Source of the DNA: Balanoglossus misakiensis
Taxonomy: Eukaryota; Animalia; Hemichordata
NCBI GenBank assembly: GCA_040954595.2
Contig: CM082581.2
Location: 10,787,099 to 10,851,098, forward strand
Direction: 5' to 3'
Length of the DNA stretch: 64,000 nt
Notes under the pieces: model-generated
Database searches by the model: none
Told to the model about the DNA's origin: nothing
Seen by the model: the letters and a program-made list of their open reading frames with translations, nothing else
Shown here: one piece after another, positions 1,225 through 59,300 of the stretch
Layout: each line of letters begins with the position of its first letter
Numbering within the stretch: position 1 is the first letter of the stretch
Program-made: the position numbers and the translations under genes

Positions 1225-4200
1225 TTATAGGTTTTTGAATCGAGAGGAAAATCCTATCCTGCTGCGCTCTCCCGCCCACGATTTCGATTTCATGCGAAAG
1301 TGTCTCAAGTCGTGGGTGTGGTCCTTGTCCAGCATCTCTTTGTAGGTCTGTGGCTCACAAAGATCCTGCAGAGAGAAAAAATCAGTTTTAATTAATACAA
1401 TTGCATACATATTTCTCACCTAGTTTGTTGACATAATACTGCCTTTTATCCAGCAAAACAATATGTCAAAAAAAAAAACATGACCTGACAACACAATCTA
1501 CTTTTTCTTACATACAGTCGACTTCACAAGATATTCCCAAAAAATCCTCACCTTGCAACTCTGAAAGAATGCCTTGTATCCGCCCTCTATCAAATACAAC
1601 TCTGGATAATACAAAGCCGGATAATTGTCCTTGTTCAAGTCACGGTCCTTGTTTCGGAGAAATCGACAGAGATTTGGTGCTCTGTTGGACGAAAACTCAC
1701 AATGGAAAACAATGATGTGTCTCTTTTGGGTTTTGCCGAGGCTTTGTATCTTTGCATGCGACAGGAATTTTTCCATGACATCCTCTTTTTTATACACATT
1801 TTCCGCTCCCTGAAAGAGGTAAAAGAAAATTCAGTTTATTTCAAAAATTAGAAATTTCCCCCACCATGAAATAGTGGGTGCCCATTATTAAAAAAACGTC
1901 ACCAAACGCATAGAAAAATGTGTTAATATTCTTTTCAAGCAAATATAAGATTTTTTGGCGCTTATACTTACATCAATATGTCCTCCTTGGTATTCATAAG
2001 GATATCTACAATCCACAATTGAATACGCAATATTCTCAAATTCGTCGTTCAGCAATCGTCGAACAGTGTCTGGAGTGATCGCCTTCAGGTCTTGATGTTT
2101 GCCCTTTATCACTGGCAAGACACACGACTGAAAAAAATAAAAAATGCAGATAAATTTAATTGGATTAAATCCTGATAAGTTAGTTCTCTTGCATGGATAT
2201 TTGACAACAACCTGTGTGTGTTACCACTAAGCTTATTATGCAAACATGGAAATGATCACTGAATGGAATCAAACATTAAATGTAACAGGGGCGTGGGGGT
2301 TCCAAAGTTGAAGATTTCGACTTCTGATAGGACGGGCTATCCACAAACAAAATAATCTGCTTTAGTATAGATTTGATAGTGTGTCAGAACATGACTTGCC
2401 ATGGGCTAGCTTGCAGGTCATTTTACTTGTGAACGATGCCCAGACATGAAATGTGGCCAACTTGTTTTGTCGCTCCCAGACAAACCAATTAAGTGAGTGG
2501 TGATTATATTTCAGTAAATCGGGTATCACAATCACTCTGTACATTAACATCCTTGCACTCCTATAATAATGCATCATGAAAATCTGGCCTCACCTCAGTG
2601 AAATCACCAATCAAATTCTCTTGGTCAGAGCCAACCATCAGCGCTCGGTCAATATGATCAGGTGCCAGCACAGATTTGGAACGGAATAAACCTGGCCTCT
2701 TTGCAGGCTGTGGGGAGAAGAGATCAAGTGATTATGCAATGGCACACTAAGAACACCCCCTACACAAAATGTTTACTTTTAAATGAAAAACACTGTTATT
2801 GATAGTTTTATTTTTAAATTCTCATCTGATCATTTTTTTACGATGATTTATTCACAATCTGGCATGATGTCTTTTGATTTATAAAAAATGAAAATCTGCT
2901 AGATGATATTGCAAACATTTACCTTTGAGGTCAGACATTGGGGACTTGCAATGGAACATCTCCTCTTGCTTCTAATGGGACTGCATGAATCAGTTGGCCT
3001 GTCTGGTCTTTTCAAGAAAGAAGTGGACGCGGACATTCTGGACACGTTGCCGGGGACACTAGGAGATCGGAAGAGCCCCCTCTTTGGGCGCATCCGTGCC
3101 GAGGGGGTGTCGTCGTAACTGGGCCAGCGCGTCGTCGCGTGGCAAACTTGCGACTGGGGCGGCTCGGTGCATCCATCTACGCAATCGGTGCCGACGTGCG
3201 GTGACGACTGCGCTTGCAAATCGGCCGGCCCGTCAGTACAGTCGTGTCCCAGGGGTGAGAAACCCAACAGAGGGGCACTCAACAGCCCGGACATACCGGA
3301 AATGCCGCTGTTTTTATTCTGTAAAAGTAAAACAAAATATGATTTTTTATTTCTATTTTCAATTAGACTCAAATAAGACAAACTTGTAGGGGCAGATCTG
3401 ATTGAAATTCAAAGCATCATGTGCATACAAACACTCACCTCATGTGGACCATCCTCATCATCATCGATTAACTCAAGAAATCCATCATCATCTTCTTCCT
3501 CCTCGGTACTTGTCAGCTTAGATTTGGACAGCGACACTGGACTATCTTGATTGAGCTGTGGTAATAACCGAGGGAGTAAATACATGTAAAACTGCAACAA
3601 GTGTTTCACTTTCAGCAGGGGATTTTATTTTCCATGTGATCTCAAATAGCTGAATTTACTGCTTACCAAACTGGCTGGAGCTGATGTTGGCCTCTTCTTT
3701 GGAGGGGTGTACCCCGAGTTGGCAAAATTTCCGTTTCCCAGTGGCCTTCTTGGCGGGAGAGGTTCAACAAACTTAAAATCGTCTTTCAGTTGACACTTTC
3801 TTGAAACCACACTTTCCTGAAGAAGATAAAAAGTCAATGTCAGTCAAGACCCGACTTGTTGGTGCAGTTGTGTGATTCACCGTCAAAGAAGGCAAAATCT
3901 GTCATAAAACGAAACAGTAAAACTGTCTTGGGTTGGTGCCAATGGCTTTTTGTACTGCACCGTTTGGATAGCCTTCAGAGATAATGGTGGGAATTTCTTT
4001 CAGAGCTTCAACAAAACGCAATATTTTTTCTTCATCCTAAAGTTAAAACTGGCTACTGTTCAGATCCATTAAAAAGTTCTGATTTTTTTTTACTAACCTG
4101 AGTAATGTTTTCTTTGTCCATAGTTTCGCCAATATAAAAGGTCGTTCGCACATTGACTTGAGAAAGTGGACTATCGGGGGTTGGTGGCCTAACTCGGTTT

Positions 4201-20333: not shown

Positions 20334-49798
<29,465 letters not shown>

Positions 49799-50560: not shown

Positions 50561-51589
50561 GAGGAAATCTGTAGCAAGAATTGCCTCACACACCCCTTTC
50601 TTTACTGCTGTTTTACTTTATTTCGTGATTCATATGCCTTTTAGCTTTCTTTTTCATTCATTGCATTGTCTCTATCACTTTTTAAGGACATAGTTACTCC
50701 CGTCTGATTTTCTACGCACTGAAATACATGACTGGTTGTCACAGGTAAACTCACAACCTGTATATGGGATCAAATAAACTTAAAACATAATATATATATA
50801 TCATACAACAAAATGAGAGTGTGAATTATAAAAACATCATTAGGAGCAGCAGCATAGACAAACTTAGAAGAATGCAATGCATCTTTTGAATTTTAAACAA
50901 TAATAAGAAGTGATTATGAGGAACAAATTGATAAAAACAACTACACGGCACAAACATTACCGGAAGTTCTTTTTAGTTCCTTTTTTTATGGAGTGGCTGT
51001 GTTTGAGCATGACTTGTGAGACTGCAGGATGCAACCTGTGCCGATCTAACAATGGTGGTGGTCAGCAACTGAAAACATACATTTGATTCTGTACGGAGAG
51101 AAGCTTTGACAGAAAGTCAACACATCTAAAAAGTCAGAGAGGGTATTTTTCATGTTGTAACTTGAACAAATTGTGCACTCCATTGGTTGGCAGTCTCACC
51201 AACAAAAGGTGCATGCATGTGTACCACAGCTGACTTGGGGAAAGTGGGATTTACATGATGCAAAGATTCTGAGACTGACTGATTACCAGGAATTTGAATC
51301 GGGTGAAACTTTTAAAATCCATTTGGAATACATCCTTATAGTGAACAAGTTCTGCTGATGTCTGCTACCTGTAGTATTTCAAATTAGGATTGTGTTTCAT
51401 TCCAACTTTTTTTCATATCTTGTTCCACACTACTTCTAATCAGTGACTATATTTTTATATTATTACATTACTTTTTATCAATAATTTTCCAATTGGGAGT
51501 CTTATACTTTCGGAACGATGGTAGTTTCCATACTACCTACACAATGCTGAATGTAATAAATAAGTTACTTTGTATTTAAATAACTGGCC

Positions 51590-52000
51590 ATGACGTCATA
51601 AAACGCCAATGATAGGCCGATGCGATGCGCGGTATATACATGTATTTGTATACATACAAGCGAACAACAACAAAGAGTAGTGAAATGAAAACGCTCTAAA
51701 AAACTTGATATATGTTTTTGCGAATTATACTTGTACAGTCTGAAAGCTATGTATGACAGAGCGGCCTTAAAAGGCAAAAGAGGCTTCCCTTAGTAATATG
51801 AGTCAGAAAATTTCTAGGTAACTTGTTGTTTGTAATATTCCCCGAATCTAAAAATAGAAACGTCATCATTCGATGAAATTTACATAAAGGTCTGATTGGT
51901 CGACATGTTCCCTCGTGACATAACACTGGGAACTCATTGGCTAGAAAAGCTACATAAACAGTTGACTACGTCATTTCTCTTCGAGGTTTAGATTGTGTTA
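51590..52000 (+). promoter_or_regulatory. Probable PNRC promoter
   Basis: CRE TGACGTCA at 51591-51598, inverted CCAAT boxes near 51895 and 51937, TATA-like TACATAAA near 51882 and 51951, and TACGTCA near 51967. A YY1-like CGCCATTTTG lies downstream at 52212. Confidence 0.5.
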
Positions 52001-52365
52001 TAGAGAGGTACAACTCTTGCCAGTTTGTGGTGCAATTTTTGGAAGATTCATGCTTATTTTGAGCAAGATCAAGTGCTAAAGGCGTGATCAAGAGAGAGAA
52101 GAGTACATTCCCAGTATTGAGGTATACAGAAGAAGACGGTTTACGTGAGAATAACGATATCAGATTGGATCAATTTTTTGATCTGGTCGTTGTCTGCAGT
52201 GTGAAAAAAATCGCCATTTTGTTTCACAGTTGGCCGGGCATTTTGCCAAGAGAAAAAAGATCGTTGGTTTATCTTCCCGCAGCAAGGAAGGTCATCAATT
52301 CGAAGCTGTTCGGTGAGGTTCTTTTGTCGATCTCGCTGAGACTGTTTTCTGATTGGTGAGAATTA

Positions 52366-52473
52366 ATGCTTCGCTTCAGAAACGGATCATCGAGGACGAA
52401 GGTAGCGGTGACGAATCTCGGAGCACGTAGGCATTGTAGAACACAACTCGAGTTCAAAGTACATTTTACATGA
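52366..52473 (+). CDS. 35-aa uORF whose stop overlaps the PNRC start (ATGA)
   Basis: ATG at 52366 reads MLRFRNGSSRTKVAVTNLGARRHCRTQLEFKVHFT*. Its TGA (52471-52473) overlaps the PNRC ATG (52470-52472). Translation is not demonstrated. Confidence 0.45.
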   Translation: MLRFRNGSSRTKVAVTNLGARRHCRTQLEFKVHFT

Positions 52474-52937
52474 CCTACAGCATGACGCCAGGCAGCAGTC
52501 CAAGTACCAGTACTCGAAACATTCAGAATCGGCGAGGAGGTAACACACCCAAGAAGCATAGGGACCGAAACAGCAATACACCGTCCCCGAAGCCTCGCGA
52601 TCGCAGCGGCTATACGACACCCAACAACAACAGGGCTTCACCGCGCACAACAGCGGATATGGAGAACAACAACAGAGTTTGGAGTCAAAACAACACTCCG
52701 AACAGACACTCCCCAAAGCCGTCCAGAATGACCAACAGCAATAACGAAAGTCCCTATGCCGGTGCTAAATTTAATGATCCTCCATCGCCGAAATTACTGC
52801 CAAAACCACCAACTCATTGGGTCGAGTCCGTAAGAACCAAAAGGCCATCCAGTACAAGTTCAGACCTTGATATCGATACAAGTGAATGTGATTTTATGAC
52901 TTGTCAGCTCAAAATGATCCTCAAAGTAACTGCATGA
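52470..52937 (+). CDS. PNRC: Proline-rich nuclear receptor coactivator (PNRC1/2-like decapping/UPF1 cofactor), single coding exon, 155 aa
   Basis: Signature YAGAKFNDPPSPKLLPKPPTHW and C-terminal MTCQLKMILKV (compare vertebrate [22 protein letters not shown] and LKTLLKV). Confidence 0.93.
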   Translation: MTYSMTPGSSPSTSTRNIQNRRGGNTPKKHRDRNSNTPSPKPRDRSGYTTPNNNRASPRTTADMENNNRVWSQNNTPNRHSPKPSRMTNSNNESPYAGAKFNDPPSPKLLPKPPTHWVESVRTKRPSSTSSDLDIDTSECDFMTCQLKMILKVTA

Positions 52938-54246
52938 GTTTACTCTTTTTTAAAAAGAGGGAAAGTTCCATTTTTAGAAGTATCTTTTTGATAACAGAAA
53001 ATACGATTTTATAAGAAGATTTTGTATAGACGATGAGAAAGTTGACCAAATTGACAGATCAGGTTTTTGAGAAATGTTTGTACATATTGTACATGACTTT
53101 GCTACGTACCTTGTACTGTTTGTCAGTTCTGCCCAATTTTAGATTTGTTCTACATTTTACTGGTGAAATTTTTTGGCACATTGTGAAGGTGGAACAAAAT
53201 TTGGGCAGAATTGACGAACATTTGTTAAATTAGTATCAGATAATTTTGTAGCCTAAAATTTGAAGCGTAGGATAGTTCAGGTTTTTGTGGGTCCAGATTA
53301 ATCAAGACTTCCCCATTTCATTCCATTCTCTTCAAAAATTTTGTCATTTAATTTCGGGATACACCAGCTTACGCAGTAAAATTGCCAGTCTATCATTTAT
53401 TTCTTTAGAGTGATAGTTATGCATGTGATAATTGCAGTCTGTCCATTTCGAATCAATCACAAGCAATGATTATAAAAAAAATACCTAAACCTTAATATCT
53501 GTATATAAGAACATTTCCAGTAGGTTCCACATTTCGGCCATTTTAAAGAAATCTTATGGAGGTAAATGCAACACAGTCAAGAAAACTTTCATATGACCAA
53601 AGGTTCTTATAAATGAAAATTGATATTTTTGCCATCTTGGTGTTAATATTCAGGATTACCACAGATTTTTATGATAAATTTTTAACCGTGTTTGGTGTAT
53701 ATAGTATACTCAAGGTTTTGTAAAGTTTTTACAAAATGAAAGTTTTCTTGACAAGGTGCTATTGTATATACTTCATATGAGTGTTTTATCGTTTAGTGTT
53801 AGAAGTTAGATTAGGTCAGTTCATCGGTAGGGCAACTTATGAAGTTTAAGGGGGGTTTCATCCCAAAACGTTTTTTAAAAGGAACTAAAAAATACCGGCT
53901 GCCCCATTTTGAAAATATTTCTTCCCTAAAAGCAGACTGATTGTTCAGTTTGTGTACTTAAAACAAATTTTTCTATAGGAGCTCGGTCATTTCGGCTTGT
54001 AAATATCGGAAAACCCAACCAACAAGAGCACTCTCACTGCCAGTTGATGTTGCATCAACTCCATACGACGACTTTCAGAAACAAGAAGACTATCACAGTG
54101 GAACCTACTGGAAAGCAGACGCTGGCACACGCACAACTATCAACAGTCGCAGACGTCGCACAAGAAAAAATCAACATGCTACAAGAACATTTTAGAATAG
54201 AAGCTTCTTTCATTTCTTTACACCATCCTATCATCAACCCCTTCCC

Positions 54247-54282
54247 GGTCCTTTTCAGGACCACACATCCTCCAAAAAGGGA
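54247..54282 (+). promoter_or_regulatory. Histone-type 3' stem-loop plus histone downstream element (SLBP/U7 processing signal) downstream of PNRC
   Basis: GGTCCT-TTTC-AGGACC (54247-54262) is a 6-bp stem with a 4-nt loop matching GGYYYU-UYUN-ARRRCC. It is followed by ACACA (54263-54267) and purine-rich AAAAAGGGA (54274-54282). Confidence 0.8.
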
Positions 54283-54946
54283 TATACCGATAAAAAGGCT
54301 TGGTCTTTATTGACTTAGGCCTCTAAAGTGTATGAGTGTGCTGTGGTGAAGTTTGGGTGATGTGTGGGTTTTGTTTGTACTACGTGTTTGTGTGCCCCTT
54401 GCAGAAAGGGGACGTGTTCAAATTTGATTTATGTTTGTTGTTTCGTGATGTCTCTGAATGTTGAAGATTAACATGATGATTGGAACTGAAGATATGGACT
54501 GCTCGGTAATGGAGGTAGGTGACCACGACAATGCCAGACAAGACCATGGAAATTGTGTTGACAGCAGTGTAGGTTTGTATTGATCAATTGGAATGAAATA
54601 TGGAAGCGCAATAAGCTTATAACACGAGAAAGGGCCAAATTTTTATGTTTTCTGAACTGATCGTGAACACAAAAGACTGCGTTGCTATTACAACAAGACA
54701 TAGTCCGTTGCACGTCACAAAGCAAGCAAAATGTACCTTTCATATGCAAATACATGTTTAAATATTCATGTTTGCCGCCCTCTTGGCTTGACAGAAATCA
54801 ATGCAATTCCCAACATCAGATGAAATTTGAAACTGGCAGTTTGAAATTGGGAGTCAAATTCCAACAAGCTCAGAACTACATGTGTATTTTCAGTTTGCTT
54901 GATTTACGGCATTACCTGCCCTAACTAAGGGACAGAAATGTCCTTC

Positions 54947-54952
54947 AATAAA
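54947..54952 (+). promoter_or_regulatory. Likely PNRC polyadenylation signal
   Basis: AATAAA about 680 nt beyond the stem-loop. It faces a minus-strand AATAAA at 55111-55116, which may serve PRC1. Confidence 0.45.
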
Positions 54953-56377
54953 CACTTGGGTCACATCTGAAAAAAATAGACCTGCCATTATAAGCCGCTG
55001 TTGACTGATTCTGAATGATAACATACACACACACAGGTATAACATATCAATGGCTTGCCACAGCAGGCTACAGCTTCTAATCTACATCACAAAATGAATG
55101 ACAGCTGATGTTTATTTATGGGGACACGGCATATCAAAAGAATTGTGATATGACACACAAGCACAAAGCAAGCTAGAGGGTACAGGTGTTCAAATCATAT
55201 TTCTTGAAGTAAAGTTATTATTCACCCTGATGGCTACATACTCCCTAGTCAACTGCAGAATTTCAAATGCAATTGTGGCTGCTTTTAATACGCATGTACG
55301 AACCATCAATTCCAGTTCAACCTTGAATGACACCACCACCAGCATTCCTTATATGTTGGTGACTAGTATATTCCCAGTAATGCAGTCAACTGTCAGGTTT
55401 TATAATAATGTCGACTTTTATTTCATTATCACACACATGGGATATCCTATCAAGGCCACAAAATCTACCCCCCCCCCCAATAAAAAAATTGGCAGCTGAT
55501 TTTTGGGCTGTATGTACCCTGTGTATATTTGCTTTCTGATGTTGTATGTATTGCCATGTTTTGGTCAAATGTTACTGGACATATAGGACACATACATGTT
55601 ACAACACACAAAAATTACAAATACTAGTAGGCAGTGTTATAAAAAAAATAGAAATATAAATAATAGCTGCATGCACAAAATTAAGATAAAACTAACGTTA
55701 CAATTTATTAATTAAATTTCATGAGATTTCCCCTACAATCCAACACAAATCATAAGTATTTCAGTGTTTTGTGTGAGAAAACATGGCATCTTTGTACTAG
55801 AATATGAATTAAGGGTACCTATCTCCCACACAAAACACCCCCCCCCCCACCAATATGGCCCCCCTAGGCAGTGATAAAAATTGTTAAAATGGCAGTGTTG
55901 AATTCCCCTACAAACACAGGAAGTGAAAGGAGAAAGAAAAGACCTAATGTTTTTGTGTCCAGTGCCAAAAATTTAGTCAGAAAGAATGCATGTCCAAGGT
56001 TCTTATCATTCTACATAACAGTGTAGCCATTAAATTCTCAAATGAACCCCCTTTGCCATTTCCATGGTTACATTATCAGATACTGGTAATTTTGTCTCAC
56101 AAAAGTTGACCTACACATATACATTACTAGAAATATTTAATTCTGATCTATATACCGGTACTTAAAGAAAATTCAGTGGGCAGTGAAAAGAAAATTACAA
56201 AAAAATGGTAAATTTGAGACACAACAGCAGAACACGTTACACATTTCGGCATCAATGCTAACAAAAAACACTGTCTGTGCTTGTAAAAGGATCATTATCG
56301 GTATCATAAAAAGTGAGGCTCAAATGTTTTTCTATTTACAACGAAAGAAGGCAGCATGGGGGAAAAAAGGCAGTGGA

Positions 56378-59300
56378 TTATAATCCGGTGACTCGGCTGT
56401 GTGTTCCAAATGTCGGACTGGGCAGTGCGCTGCTACGGTAGTTGGATCGACCGCCTGAACTCAATCCATGCTACAATGAGAACAGATCAACAAGGCTACG
56501 GATTAGAAGACGAGATTTTAATAGTTGTAATTTCAGCCTCAAGATGCAGGAGTCTGGAGATGTACCATTATTTATAAAATTATGTCTGTTTTTTTCCCTT
56601 TTAATTCTACTAGTATATTTTGATATGTATATACTGTAGATATTTCACAGCTATTCACAGTGAAAAAATCCTAAATATTCAAAATGACTAAATGTGTACT
56701 AAAAAGAACAAAGGATCAATGCAAATGAAAGGAACATTCACTGTTACATTTTAAATCCTCTTGACAATATAGCTTGAATGACTGAAAATTTTTGGATATT
56801 GCAGACATATAATTGTCGATGTTTGATTTATACACTAATGGACTACCAGGCATACCTAATTTTACATCATTACTGATGAAGTCTGTTTTCTGTTTACTTT
56901 TTGGGCACCATCTTGTGGTAAAAAAATATTAATTCTGATTTAATAATTTATCAGGCGTTGAAATTTCTATCAAATGGCTTGAAAACTAGATGGTTAGGAA
57001 AACCTGCATGGAATTACCCAGGGGACTGCAGCAAAGCTGATAATTATGCATATTTGACCACAGCTGTGTTTACATCCATATCGCAGCTAATAAAATTTAC
57101 CATGAGCCACAACAATAAAAGCGGAATGAAAGACAGTCAATTTACATTGGCTAGCTTTTCAGCTTTGATCTGCAGATAAAAGAACATTTTCAGTACATCT
57201 AGTCCATGAGCATTATTATCCGACAAAGGGATGATTTATATACAGAAGAAACCAAGAAAAATTGCAGGGCTTTCCATGTGTCGCAAGGTGAATTGATGGG
57301 TGAACCAGCCCATCTATTTTGATGGCTACCCTTCTGCGTTTAGTGTTAGTCTGTATTCACATATTTATAACTTACAAAAGTGGGGATTTGGGAAGCTTTG
57401 GAATATGCAAATAAAGTAATATGCTAATAATAATAAGCCCTTCAAAAATCAGAAATTTGAACATCATACATGACTATGGTAGATAGTGTTTTTAGCTTTG
57501 ACCTGAGGTTGGAAGTGAAAATAAAAGCATAAAATACAATATTCATTTCAGTACAACCTGACAGTTTTGCTGCTCAGACAAAAATTAACTATGAATATCA
57601 AAAATAAACACCAGGTGACACAAAAAACTTTTGAACTTTGATAAGGACAAACACATTTGAAAAAGCATACATCTGGCTGATATGAAAAGTGACATGATAT
57701 GGCGAATGAAAAACAGAGTACCTCTATGATATGACACCAACCCCCAGAGCATTGTTTGACTGAAGTTAATAATTTAACTTACTGTGAAGTCGTCATATGA
57801 TCCGCATGTGGAAGCGATGGAGATATTAGTGGTTGCGTTGCTGCCAGTGCTGGCTGTGGCACCGCTCAGTGTTGTCGTGCTGAAAGCTGATGACGCTGTC
57901 GTGTCGGGGGTGTTACGGTCGCCTAAAGCTCTACGGTTGGATCGTCTTAGCGGGGTCTTGGAGGGTTTAGCCGGCGGCTGGAGGAATATGAGATGAGATG
58001 TTAGTTACTGGGTGGAGCCATGCATTTATCCTGGTGAGAGCAACCACCGAGGAAGACAGAGGACTCACATTTCGGCAAACTCTTCCTCGATTTCATCATC
58101 AAGATCGTCTTCCTCATGGATCTGTCGACACGCTAGCACTTTCTGAAAAAATCACGCCAGCAGCAACAAAGAATCACCTAAAGTCAGGTCATATTCGGCA
58201 ATAAACTTGAAATGATATCAAATTCCATGAATTTTCAGGAACATTCGAACAATGCACAGATACAAGTCCTGACTTCAATTCAATAAACATATGTGTAGTC
58301 ATAGATGTGTGTGTATGTGTGTTTGCAGAGAATGGTGTGAGCATGTCTTGCCAAATATGAAACCGCTGTATTTAGAAGCAATGACACATACCCCAGCTTT
58401 CTTGGCAGATTTTGGTGGTCGACCAGCTTTCAACGGTGATGGACAAATACTGGTGTGTGTGAAACCCAGTCTGGCTTTCGGTGATGGGGCCACAGTGCCA
58501 TTCATCTGTGGAACAAAAGTAAAAAGAAGAGAAAAAATGATGATCCATGATGATGTACATGTATATAAAGTTCATTTCATTTCAGTAGATGGATTCCAAA
58601 CTTCTGGTTTTTGGCTGTCCTACTTTCAACTTTTCTGTTCAGTGTAAAAACACTCACCCCTCGAAGTCTCTTTGGTGTTTTTGTGGGTGTTGTGGTTCCG
58701 ATGAATCTTCTTTTGACGGGCGTTGTTGGTTTGCTTCCCCATCTCATCTCTTGCTCTGTTTCCTTGGCTCTTGCTTTCAGCTTTAAAAAAGGGGAGATCA
58801 ATATTGTTCCACATAAGAAGTAGCATCAGACATTTGATAAAGATGACTAGTGTCAGCCAACTCAATCTTCAATGTGATTTACATTTCATAGCCATGCACT
58901 ATTTGCTAAAATGCCAAAAAAAACAAAAACAACATACCCTCAATTCTTTGTGAATTTGCTTCTCTTGTTCATGTGCCGTCCACTGCGCCTGTACATAATC
59001 CATAAATCTGCAGCCATCCACCAGGAACTCTACGCCTTTATCGGTTTCCCACTGTTTAATCCTTTCCCCCAGGTCCTTCTCAACCTGGCAACAGATCAAA
59101 TATCCGTGGAAATCAATGATAAATTCATACAATATACGCGGGAATAAAAATAACCATCACAAACTTTTTTCCAGAGTCAGCTGGTACAAGTATGTGTATA
59201 AATAATGATTCGTACTTGTCCCCATTTTATTTTTCAATATATTAGACATGCCCGATTAATGATTCAGGATTGATATCAGAGACAGATTCAACTTGATGCA

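What the first reader, a model, noticed from the sequence alone, without database searches (positions are those of the whole stretch)
54241..54285. Canonical histone mRNA stem-loop and downstream element at the 3' end of a non-histone gene (PNRC)
Seen: GGTCCTTTTCAGGACC then ACACA, with AAAAAGGGA starting 12 nt after the hairpin, on the PNRC sense strand about 1.3 kb past its stop. An AATAAA lies further downstream at 54947. None of the three upstream frames translates to a histone, so this does not look like a histone pseudogene. Established: this 16-nt hairpin with an AC-rich tail and a purine-rich HDE is the SLBP/U7 snRNP signal, essentially confined to replication-dependent histone mRNAs in animals. 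PNRC2 bridges UPF1 to DCP1 and has been implicated in histone mRNA decay. A rough equal-base-frequency estimate gives about 1e-3 chance of the hairpin consensus in 64 kb on both strands, and less with the flanks. Inference: PNRC may make a poly(A)-minus, SLBP-bound, S-phase-coupled isoform in addition to a polyadenylated one, putting a histone-decay cofactor under histone-type control.
Basis: partly seen in the sequence, partly recalled or inferred. Interest (0 to 1): 0.92.

Follow-up and report, generated by a model that had tools for sequence, protein, structure and literature searches.

The report
Histone-type mRNA end behind PNRC gene
An acorn worm's PNRC gene, whose human relative helps destroy histone messages, is followed 1.3 kb downstream by a complete copy of the hairpin and downstream signal that end histone messages; this likely ends PNRC's own message, but no RNA data show it yet.

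Summary
The only canonical histone hairpin in the window lies at 54247-54262, 1309 nt behind the stop of a PNRC gene of a ptychoderid hemichordate. It is more than a hairpin: the 49-nt cassette 54246-54294 recurs, with the same borders, at 2-3 other low-copy loci of this animal (one seems to follow an H4-like stop), and both metagenome hits to hairpin plus downstream tract are H1 genes. No histone relic, multi-copy repeat or credible separate gene lies upstream. New here: the stop-to-hairpin interval is single-copy and strongly folded (two perfect 17-bp long-range helices; z about -3.9), has no AATAAA/ATTAAA, and the cassette sits where PNRC and the convergent PRC1 gene meet. Best reading (0.5): a likely functional histone-type 3' end of a long PNRC transcript, with an overlapping GATAAA as poly(A) alternative. 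S-phase-coupled decay is doubtful, since that needs the hairpin near the stop codon. Main rival (0.25): a recently captured, idle histone-gene fragment. No RNA run, U7 gene or orthologous locus could be examined. The scan noted histone-type ends on non-histone genes in other genomes (unchecked notes).

The parts
52470..52937 (+). PNRC coding sequence, 155 aa, one exon
52368..52473 (+). short upstream ORF whose stop overlaps the PNRC start codon (ATGA)
   Evidence: sequence
53046..53357 (+). folded domain 1 of the putative 3' UTR (20-bp helix 53117-53136/53201-53220; G-U pairs favour the + strand)
   Evidence: (z -4.0)
53411..54142 (.). folded domain 2: nested long-range helices, among them two perfect 17-bp pairs 53514-53530/54098-54114 and 53576-53592/53736-53752; strand not settled
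   Evidence: z -4.2 +; z -6.7 -
54247..54262 (+). canonical histone stem-loop (6-bp stem, 4-nt loop)
54263..54267 (+). ACACA tail; predicted cleavage site after 54267 (inferred from the known rule)
   Evidence: established knowledge
54268..54294 (+). downstream tract with purine core 54274-54282; shared with H1 genes L032/L033 up to 54283 and with 2-3 other loci of this animal up to 54293-54296; predicted U7-pairing region (HDE)
54289..54294 (+). GATAAA, candidate variant poly(A) signal overlapping the end of the HDE tract
   Evidence: PMC9756948 passages for mouse GAUAAA
54300..54450 (+). G+T-rich tract, candidate downstream element; the A+C to G+T switch at about 54295-54300 is the strongest in the window
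54306..54311 (-). AATAAA on the - strand, candidate distal poly(A) signal of the convergent PRC1 gene
56378..56470 (-). last coding exon and stop of the convergent PRC1 gene

Best explanation
A complete histone-type 3'-end cassette (stem-loop, ACACA, downstream element) sits 1.3 kb behind the PNRC stop codon and likely ends a long, folded PNRC transcript: SLBP would bind the hairpin, U7 snRNP would pair with 54268-54291, and CPSF73 would cut near 54267, giving a poly(A)-minus mRNA. The overlapping GATAAA and G+T-rich tract would give a polyadenylated form about 50 nt longer that keeps the hairpin inside. Because the cassette lies where the PNRC and PRC1 3' ends meet, the cut would also stop + strand read-through into PRC1's 3' region. 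Shown: the cassette, its sharing with histone genes, its position, the folding potential of the interval. Inferred: transcription through the interval on the + strand, SLBP and U7 use, both end forms. Not expected by default: rapid decay at the end of S phase, since the hairpin is far from the stop.
For: (1) 6 of 19 contig records laid on 52000-56000 fit only the cassette, from 54246-54256 to 54293-54296, with unrelated flanks; they group by loose ends into 2-3 low-copy loci, 2-5 letters different. Similarity ends at the same borders each time, as expected of a unit kept by selection. One loose end reads Gly-Gly-stop about 19 nt before the stem (H4-like); others have the A-rich flank of histone stem-loops. 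(2) 2 of 2 metagenome hits to hairpin plus tract are intronless H1 genes, 37 of 39 letters identical, stem-loop 27-30 nt behind the stop; the tract was in the pattern, the histone identity was not. (3) No AATAAA or ATTAAA on + between stop and hairpin, 2.3 expected (weak, P about 0.1). (4) The interval folds better than 44 of 44 shuffles (z -3.9); two perfect 17-bp pairs, against 0 of 3000 shuffles with two pairs even of 13 bp; outside this interval only one inverted-repeat element in the window has such pairs. No other contig matches the interval, so it is not a recent MITE. Domain 2 spans the weak poly(A) variants at 53471-53735 and uses the candidate small ORFs as its 3' arm. (5) Strongest A+C to G+T switch of 6350 positions falls at the cassette's end (bin sizes chosen after looking). 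(6) An inserted histone stem-loop in a polyadenylated reporter recruits SLBP (PMC4132728, section 14).
Against: No RNA evidence of any kind. The three runs are one sample of one study and may be the window's source. The 5' flank lacks the A-run of the consensus (though L032/L033 also end in CTTC). 1309 nt from the stop, against 20-50 nt in the histone genes seen here; folding does not bring stop and hairpin closer than in shuffles (graph distance 37 against a median of 18). Domain 2 folds at least as well on the - strand, its two internal mismatches in the outer helix would be G-U on -, and a - strand AATAAA at 53401 lies just beyond it, so it may belong to a PRC1 or other antisense RNA. Other native 750-nt regions reach z -3.5 and -2.75 (2 of 15 controls). 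Variant poly(A) hexamers with T-rich tracts exist earlier (53375-53884). The read-laying tool drops human-like contigs, so a histone donor locus matching longer flanks may be hidden. The H4/H1 labels of the paralogous loci rest on 30-letter loose ends only.
Confidence: 0.5

Rival explanations
1. The cassette is a recently captured piece of a histone gene's 3' end (DNA-level templated insertion or orphon-like fragment) lying idle between the PNRC and PRC1 3' ends.
For: Only 2 letters and a 3-nt gap separate it from the nearest paralogous locus, against about 1 difference per 100 bases between haplotypes here, so a young age is possible. It lacks the A-rich 5' flank that paralogues have. The 50 nt upstream resemble the pyrimidine-rich 3' UTR of H1 gene L032 (p 0.0065, but p 0.42 for L033). 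No histone coding sequence came along.
Against: Both borders coincide, within about 3 nt, with the borders of conservation among the other loci, which a random fragment would rarely do (unless the donor was filtered out). No joint skipping the cassette in any of 3 runs (one sample). It falls exactly at the strongest compositional switch of the window and at paired poly(A)-like signals.
Confidence: 0.25
2. The cassette ends a separate small or decayed transcription unit at about 53960-54250 (orphan ORF, NAP-like relic or non-coding RNA), not PNRC.
For: Stops at 54193-54195 and 54198-54200 lie about 50 nt before the hairpin, a histone-like distance; one frame gives a weak Pfam NAP match across an in-frame stop (E 0.0011, 18.6 bits, cut-off 28.6; 1 of 9 frames); an AG acceptor-like site at 53978; higher GC and CpG than the proximal flank. 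Earlier scan notes describe such small genes in other animals (unchecked).
Against: No PDB match at E 10; the 3 hits among 1.84 billion representatives are repeat artefacts, none NAP; the only ATG ORF (54047, 88 aa) runs through the hairpin and has no Atlas hit; the NAP-like residues overlap a 17-bp helix arm that pairs 570 nt upstream; two haplotype differences fall in the acceptor's pyrimidine tract.
Confidence: 0.13
3. The cassette and its surroundings are the remnant of a mobile element that carried histone-type ends.
For: Six fetched loci with a long H3-like ORF and one without, which look like retroelement interiors, carry the same hairpin and a related downstream tract; similarity of the tract p about 0.01 for L024 and L025. 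Nested inverted pairs upstream could be decayed terminal repeats.
Against: No other contig matches anything but the 49 nt; no protein similarity between 53000-56000 and those loci; p 0.07-0.25 for L011 and L006; the H1 genes match far better; no hammerhead core or Rfam ribozyme near the hairpin; helices are perfect blocks with unequal spacers, unlike a decayed inverted duplication.
Confidence: 0.08
4. Chance occurrence of a hairpin with a purine tract.
For: The bare 18-mer does occur by chance: 17 of 30 hits in prokaryote genomes lie in bacterial-looking sequence, in line with 596 billion bases.
Against: Hairpin plus tail expected 1e-5 times in the window; an exact 17-nt downstream match to H1 genes about 4e-10; 39-49 nt shared with other loci of the same animal.
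Confidence: 0.01

Closest known systems
Metazoan replication-dependent histone mRNA 3' end (Rfam RF00032 stem-loop, HDE, SLBP, U7 snRNP, CPSF73)
   Same: Canonical stem-loop, AC-rich tail, purine core from the 12th base, downstream tract shared with histone genes. Mechanism as described in PMC7026596 (passages).
   Different: Upstream gene is PNRC, not a histone; 1309 nt from the stop instead of 20-50; no A-rich 5' flank; long folded interval upstream; use in vivo untested.
Dual-end histone genes such as human H2AC18 and its mouse orthologue (poly(A) signal overlapping the HDE)
   Same: A poly(A)-signal hexamer overlaps the HDE tract; GAUAAA is named as functional in mouse (PMC9756948, passages).
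   Different: There the hexamer overlaps the 5' part of the HDE of a histone gene; here it lies at the 3' end of the tract, behind a non-histone gene.
Histone orphons and pseudogene fragments (recalled, no call)
   Same: A solitary histone-gene 3' piece away from a cluster.
   Different: No histone coding sequence at all; borders match the functional cassette.
PNRC2 as UPF1-recruited decapping cofactor in histone mRNA decay (PMC4132728, abstract)
   Same: The upstream gene belongs to the PNRC family and keeps the C-terminal motif.
   Different: Shown in human cells only; nothing in that abstract or section 14 concerns PNRC mRNA's own 3' end.

Membership tests
Replication-dependent histone 3' end | 6-bp stem, 4-nt loop consensus hairpin | tested here: met
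Replication-dependent histone 3' end | RF00032 score at or above gathering (34 bits) | tested here: not met
   29.6 bits; but 7 of 10 matches in 7 control loci, among them both H1 genes, are also below 34
Replication-dependent histone 3' end | AC-rich 5-nt tail after the stem | tested here: met
   ACACA
Replication-dependent histone 3' end | A-rich 5' flank used by SLBP | tested here: not met
   CTTCCC; H1 genes L032/L033 also end in CTTC
Replication-dependent histone 3' end | HDE shared with histone genes | tested here: met
   37 of 39 with two H1 genes of another animal; 39-49 nt with 2-3 loci of this animal whose histone identity is only suggested by loose ends
Replication-dependent histone 3' end | Complementarity to this species' U7 snRNA | not testable with these tools
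   no genome held
Replication-dependent histone 3' end | Stem-loop close to the stop codon | tested here: not met
   1309 nt from the PNRC stop; 27-30 nt in L032/L033; folding gives no special proximity
Replication-dependent histone 3' end | Histone coding sequence upstream | tested here: not met
Replication-dependent histone 3' end | Intronless transcript | tested here: inconclusive
   coding sequence is one exon; no donor scoring 7 of 9 or more in 51900-52881, five further down; no RNA
Replication-dependent histone 3' end | Poly(A)-minus RNA ending after the tail, SLBP bound, S-phase-coupled | not testable with these tools
   no RNA holder listed
Histone pseudogene or orphon | Recognisable histone coding relic | tested here: not met
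   five histone proteins of L027 against the window: no significant match near the site in the output seen (cut in the middle); H1 DNA of L032/L033 scores as shuffles; Pfam none
Dispersed repeat or MITE | Many copies with shared body and terminal repeats | tested here: not met
   2-3 other low-depth loci share 39-51 nt only; contigs may be filtered
NAP/SET histone chaperone relic | Significant similarity to NAP proteins | tested here: not met
   Pfam 18.6 bits under cut-off 28.6; none in PDB or among representatives

The most novel reading that the evidence does not exclude
PNRC mRNA of this acorn worm is a true non-histone client of the SLBP/U7 pathway: made as a poly(A)-minus RNA with a 1.3-kb folded 3' UTR, and coupled to the cell cycle like histone mRNA, so that a cofactor of histone mRNA decay is controlled by the pathway it serves. 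(U7-type processing without cell-cycle coupling is likelier, about 0.4.)
Probability: 0.13. Interest if true: 0.9.

Novelty: new variant of a known kind. Interest (0 to 1): 0.6.

Why it matters
Histone mRNAs are held to be the only animal mRNAs ended by SLBP and U7 snRNP. A conserved, well-studied non-histone gene using that end would widen the pathway's client list, and PNRC is the most telling candidate because its human relative acts in histone mRNA decay. The locus also makes two questions directly testable: whether U7-type cleavage works outside a histone locus at the end of a long UTR, and whether translation and decay control by the stem-loop survive a 1.3-kb distance from the stop codon. 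The shared tract also predicts the 5' end of this animal's U7 snRNA (reverse complement of about 54269-54291).

Tried and rejected
No whole genome is held, so U7, SLBP and the main histone clusters could not be searched. No RNA holder listed (no evidence either way). Cassette patterns found nothing in viral contigs or genome contigs. NAP-like reading of frame 53902 rejected; it stays untested by protein-language-model features. ATG ORF 54047-54310: no usable Atlas hit, low recognition. Histone relic upstream rejected. Idea that folding brings the hairpin next to the stop: not supported, shuffles are as close or closer. U7 gene on the - strand considered and rejected by eye: no Sm-like site, and the hairpin is canonical on +. 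Hammerhead core: 12 matches in the window, none within 53000-56000. Variant depletion: 0 of 9 variants in the major helices, P 0.09, not significant. Host of L032/L033 could not be named (47 H1 hits, none named; not in the cluster table). Literature: searches listed no paper whose title or abstract start reports a non-histone mRNA with this end or a stem-loop behind PNRC; most subscription papers are not searched, and PMC2151031 was not held. No supplements were read.

Full report
Observation. The hairpin GGTCCTTTTCAGGACC lies at 54247-54262 on +, followed by ACACA and, from 54274, AAAAAGGGA. It is the only match to a loose stem-loop consensus on either strand; the strict consensus is expected 0.006 times in the window, and 1e-5 times with the tail. 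Rfam RF00032 gives 29.6 bits, E 7.9e-6, under the gathering score of 34; real H1 genes with the same end score 29.8 and 31.4. The 5' flank is CTTCCC rather than A-rich. The upstream ORF 52470-52937 is PNRC, 77% identical to Ptychodera flava and 56% to Saccoglossus kowalevskii PNRC2-like, so the animal is an acorn worm close to Ptychodera. cdc25-like exons lie upstream on -; PRC1 converges from the right, its stop at 56378-56380. No genome is held and no RNA run was listed.

The element is a cassette, not just a hairpin. Three DNA runs of one sample were laid on 52000-56000. Of 19 records, 13 are this locus; 6 fit only from 54246-54256 to 54293-54296 and go on with unrelated letters. Shared loose ends group them into 2-3 loci with 2 letters plus a 3-nt gap, 3 letters plus a 4-nt gap, and 4-5 letters of difference. 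Their depths (27-38 against about 62 in X1; 95.5 against 112.7 in X2; 5.5 in X3) point to low copy number. One loose end reads Gly-Gly-stop about 19 nt before the stem, as H4 ends (compare H4); others end in the A-rich flank typical of histone stem-loops. These labels rest on 30 letters each. The tool drops human-like contigs, so the main histone genes may be hidden. A metagenome scan for hairpin plus tract gave 2 hits; both are intronless H1 genes (Pfam linker histone) with 37 of 39 letters identical to 54246-54283 and the hairpin 27-30 nt behind the stop. The tract was part of the pattern; that 2 of 2 hits are histones was not. Their host could not be named. The 5' part of U7 snRNA pairs with the HDE (PMC7026596, passages), so I infer that 54268-54291 is this animal's HDE and that its reverse complement predicts the U7 5' end.

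What lies upstream. Five histone proteins from L027 give no significant match near the site in the output I saw (cut in the middle), H1 DNA scores like shuffles, and Pfam finds no histone in 9 frames. One frame gave a weak NAP match (E 0.0011, under cut-off) across an in-frame stop; PDB gave nothing and the 3 hits among 1.84 billion representatives were repeat artefacts. The only ATG ORF runs through the hairpin and has no Atlas hit. So a histone pseudogene is rejected and a separate small gene is poorly supported.

The interval between stop and hairpin is unusual. It has no AATAAA or ATTAAA on + (2.3 expected), only variant hexamers. It holds two perfect 17-bp inverted pairs, 53514-53530/54098-54114 and 53576-53592/53736-53752, nested inside 53411-53427/54126-54142. 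In 3000 dinucleotide shuffles 1 had one 17-bp pair and none had two pairs even of 13 bp; 4 of 97 native tiles have a perfect 15-bp pair, 2 from this interval and 2 from an inverted-repeat element at 23573-24190. The 1309 nt fold better than 44 of 44 shuffles (z -3.9) into two domains. Domain 1 (53046-53357; z -4.0) has G-U pairs on + and no A-C. Domain 2 (53411-54142) is the best of 16 regions tested, though 2 controls reach z -3.5 and -2.75; it folds on both strands (z -4.2 and -6.7 with 20 shuffles each), and its mismatches lean weakly to - (5 A-C against 2 G-U, several at helix ends), with a - strand AATAAA at 53401 just beyond it. No other contig matches the interval, so it is not a recent MITE. 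I read it as a structured RNA; if on +, it ties PNRC's proximal UTR to 54142, 104 nt short of the hairpin, and explains the candidate small ORFs as a helix arm. Folding does not bring stop and hairpin unusually close (graph distance 37; shuffle median 18).

Position. The strongest A+C to G+T switch among 6350 positions of the window falls at about 54295-54300 (bins chosen after looking). GATAAA (54289, +) followed by a G+T-rich tract faces AATAAA (54311, -) followed on its own strand by a G+T-rich tract. This is the pattern of two convergent 3' ends, and PNRC and PRC1 are the only recognised genes on either side. A poly(A) hexamer overlapping the HDE, GAUAAA in mouse, is known from H2AC18 (PMC9756948, passages).

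Mechanism. Most likely (0.5) the cassette ends a long PNRC transcript: SLBP on the hairpin, U7 on the tract, a cut near 54267, with a polyadenylated alternative about 50 nt further on; all of these steps are inferred. A stem-loop placed inside a polyadenylated reporter does recruit SLBP (PMC4132728, section 14), and human PNRC2 is recruited by UPF1 in histone mRNA decay (same paper, abstract). The main rival (0.25) is a young, idle fragment of a histone gene: the nearest paralogue is only 2 letters and a gap away, and a donor may be filtered out; against it, both borders match the borders of conservation, and no empty-site joint was seen (one sample only). A separate small unit (0.13) and a mobile-element remnant (0.08) follow. 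For the latter: of 30 hits to the bare 18-mer in prokaryote assemblies, 5 loci are ordinary histone genes on contaminating animal contigs, 6 carry a long H3-like ORF in a retroelement-looking setting, 2 are unclear animal-like pieces and 17 look like chance; the tract of two H3-like loci resembles the window's (p about 0.01), far less than the H1 genes do.

Conservation could not be tested: no orthologous locus in genome or viral contigs.

Comparison and novelty. It works like a replication-dependent histone 3' end but is not a member of that gene class: no histone coding sequence, and the stop is far away. Nine literature searches (listings only, except the papers named) showed no report of a stem-loop behind PNRC or of a non-histone mRNA with this end; PMC3597683 (passages) calls the element confined to one gene class; the soniCLIP preprint (passages) did not name non-histone stem-loop targets in the passages seen. 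Earlier notes of this scan describe histone-type ends on small non-histone genes and mobile elements in other animals; they are unchecked and were used only as leads. I file this as a new variant of a known kind, interest 0.6: the cassette is real and well formed, the gene behind which it sits is the most suggestive possible, and everything about its use is still untested.

Noticed in passing
L006, L009, L019, L024, L025, L026 (hairpin at 4002-4017 in most); L011:117-132: Animal contigs inside prokaryote assemblies carry a long H3-like ORF (364-718 aa; H3 N-terminus, long insert, histone fold by Pfam in the two tested) ending in a canonical histone stem-loop, beside ORFs that look by eye like envelope and integrase-tail proteins (Pfam gave no family for them). 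L011 has the same end behind a non-histone frame. Possibly LTR retroelements carrying a histone-type gene; one literature search and one scan look-up showed nothing on it.
   Followed up: partly
window 53046-54142: Single-copy, strongly folded region with two perfect 17-bp long-range helices; strand of domain 2 unsettled; no Rfam match at gathering.
   Followed up: yes
window 52368-52473: 35-codon upstream ORF whose stop overlaps the PNRC start codon (ATGA), a layout known for termination-reinitiation (recalled).
   Followed up: no
window 21682-21756 (-): SNORD49 family snoRNA, 42.3 bits, above gathering.
   Followed up: no
window 23573-24190: Inverted-repeat element with long arms (128 and 49 bp perfect blocks), MITE-like.
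   Followed up: no
window 1500-62430: PNRC lies between two mitotic genes: a cdc25-like gene on - upstream and PRC1 convergent downstream; several CCAAT boxes in 51489-52352.
   Followed up: partly
window 54268-54283; L033, L025: The tract behind the hairpin can itself fold into a short second hairpin in the window, L033 and L025, with different stem letters in L025; may matter for U7 access.
   Followed up: no
L003:3978-4017: Two histone-like stem-loops in tandem, the first with one mismatch, with no histone ORF upstream, on an animal-looking contig.
   Followed up: no
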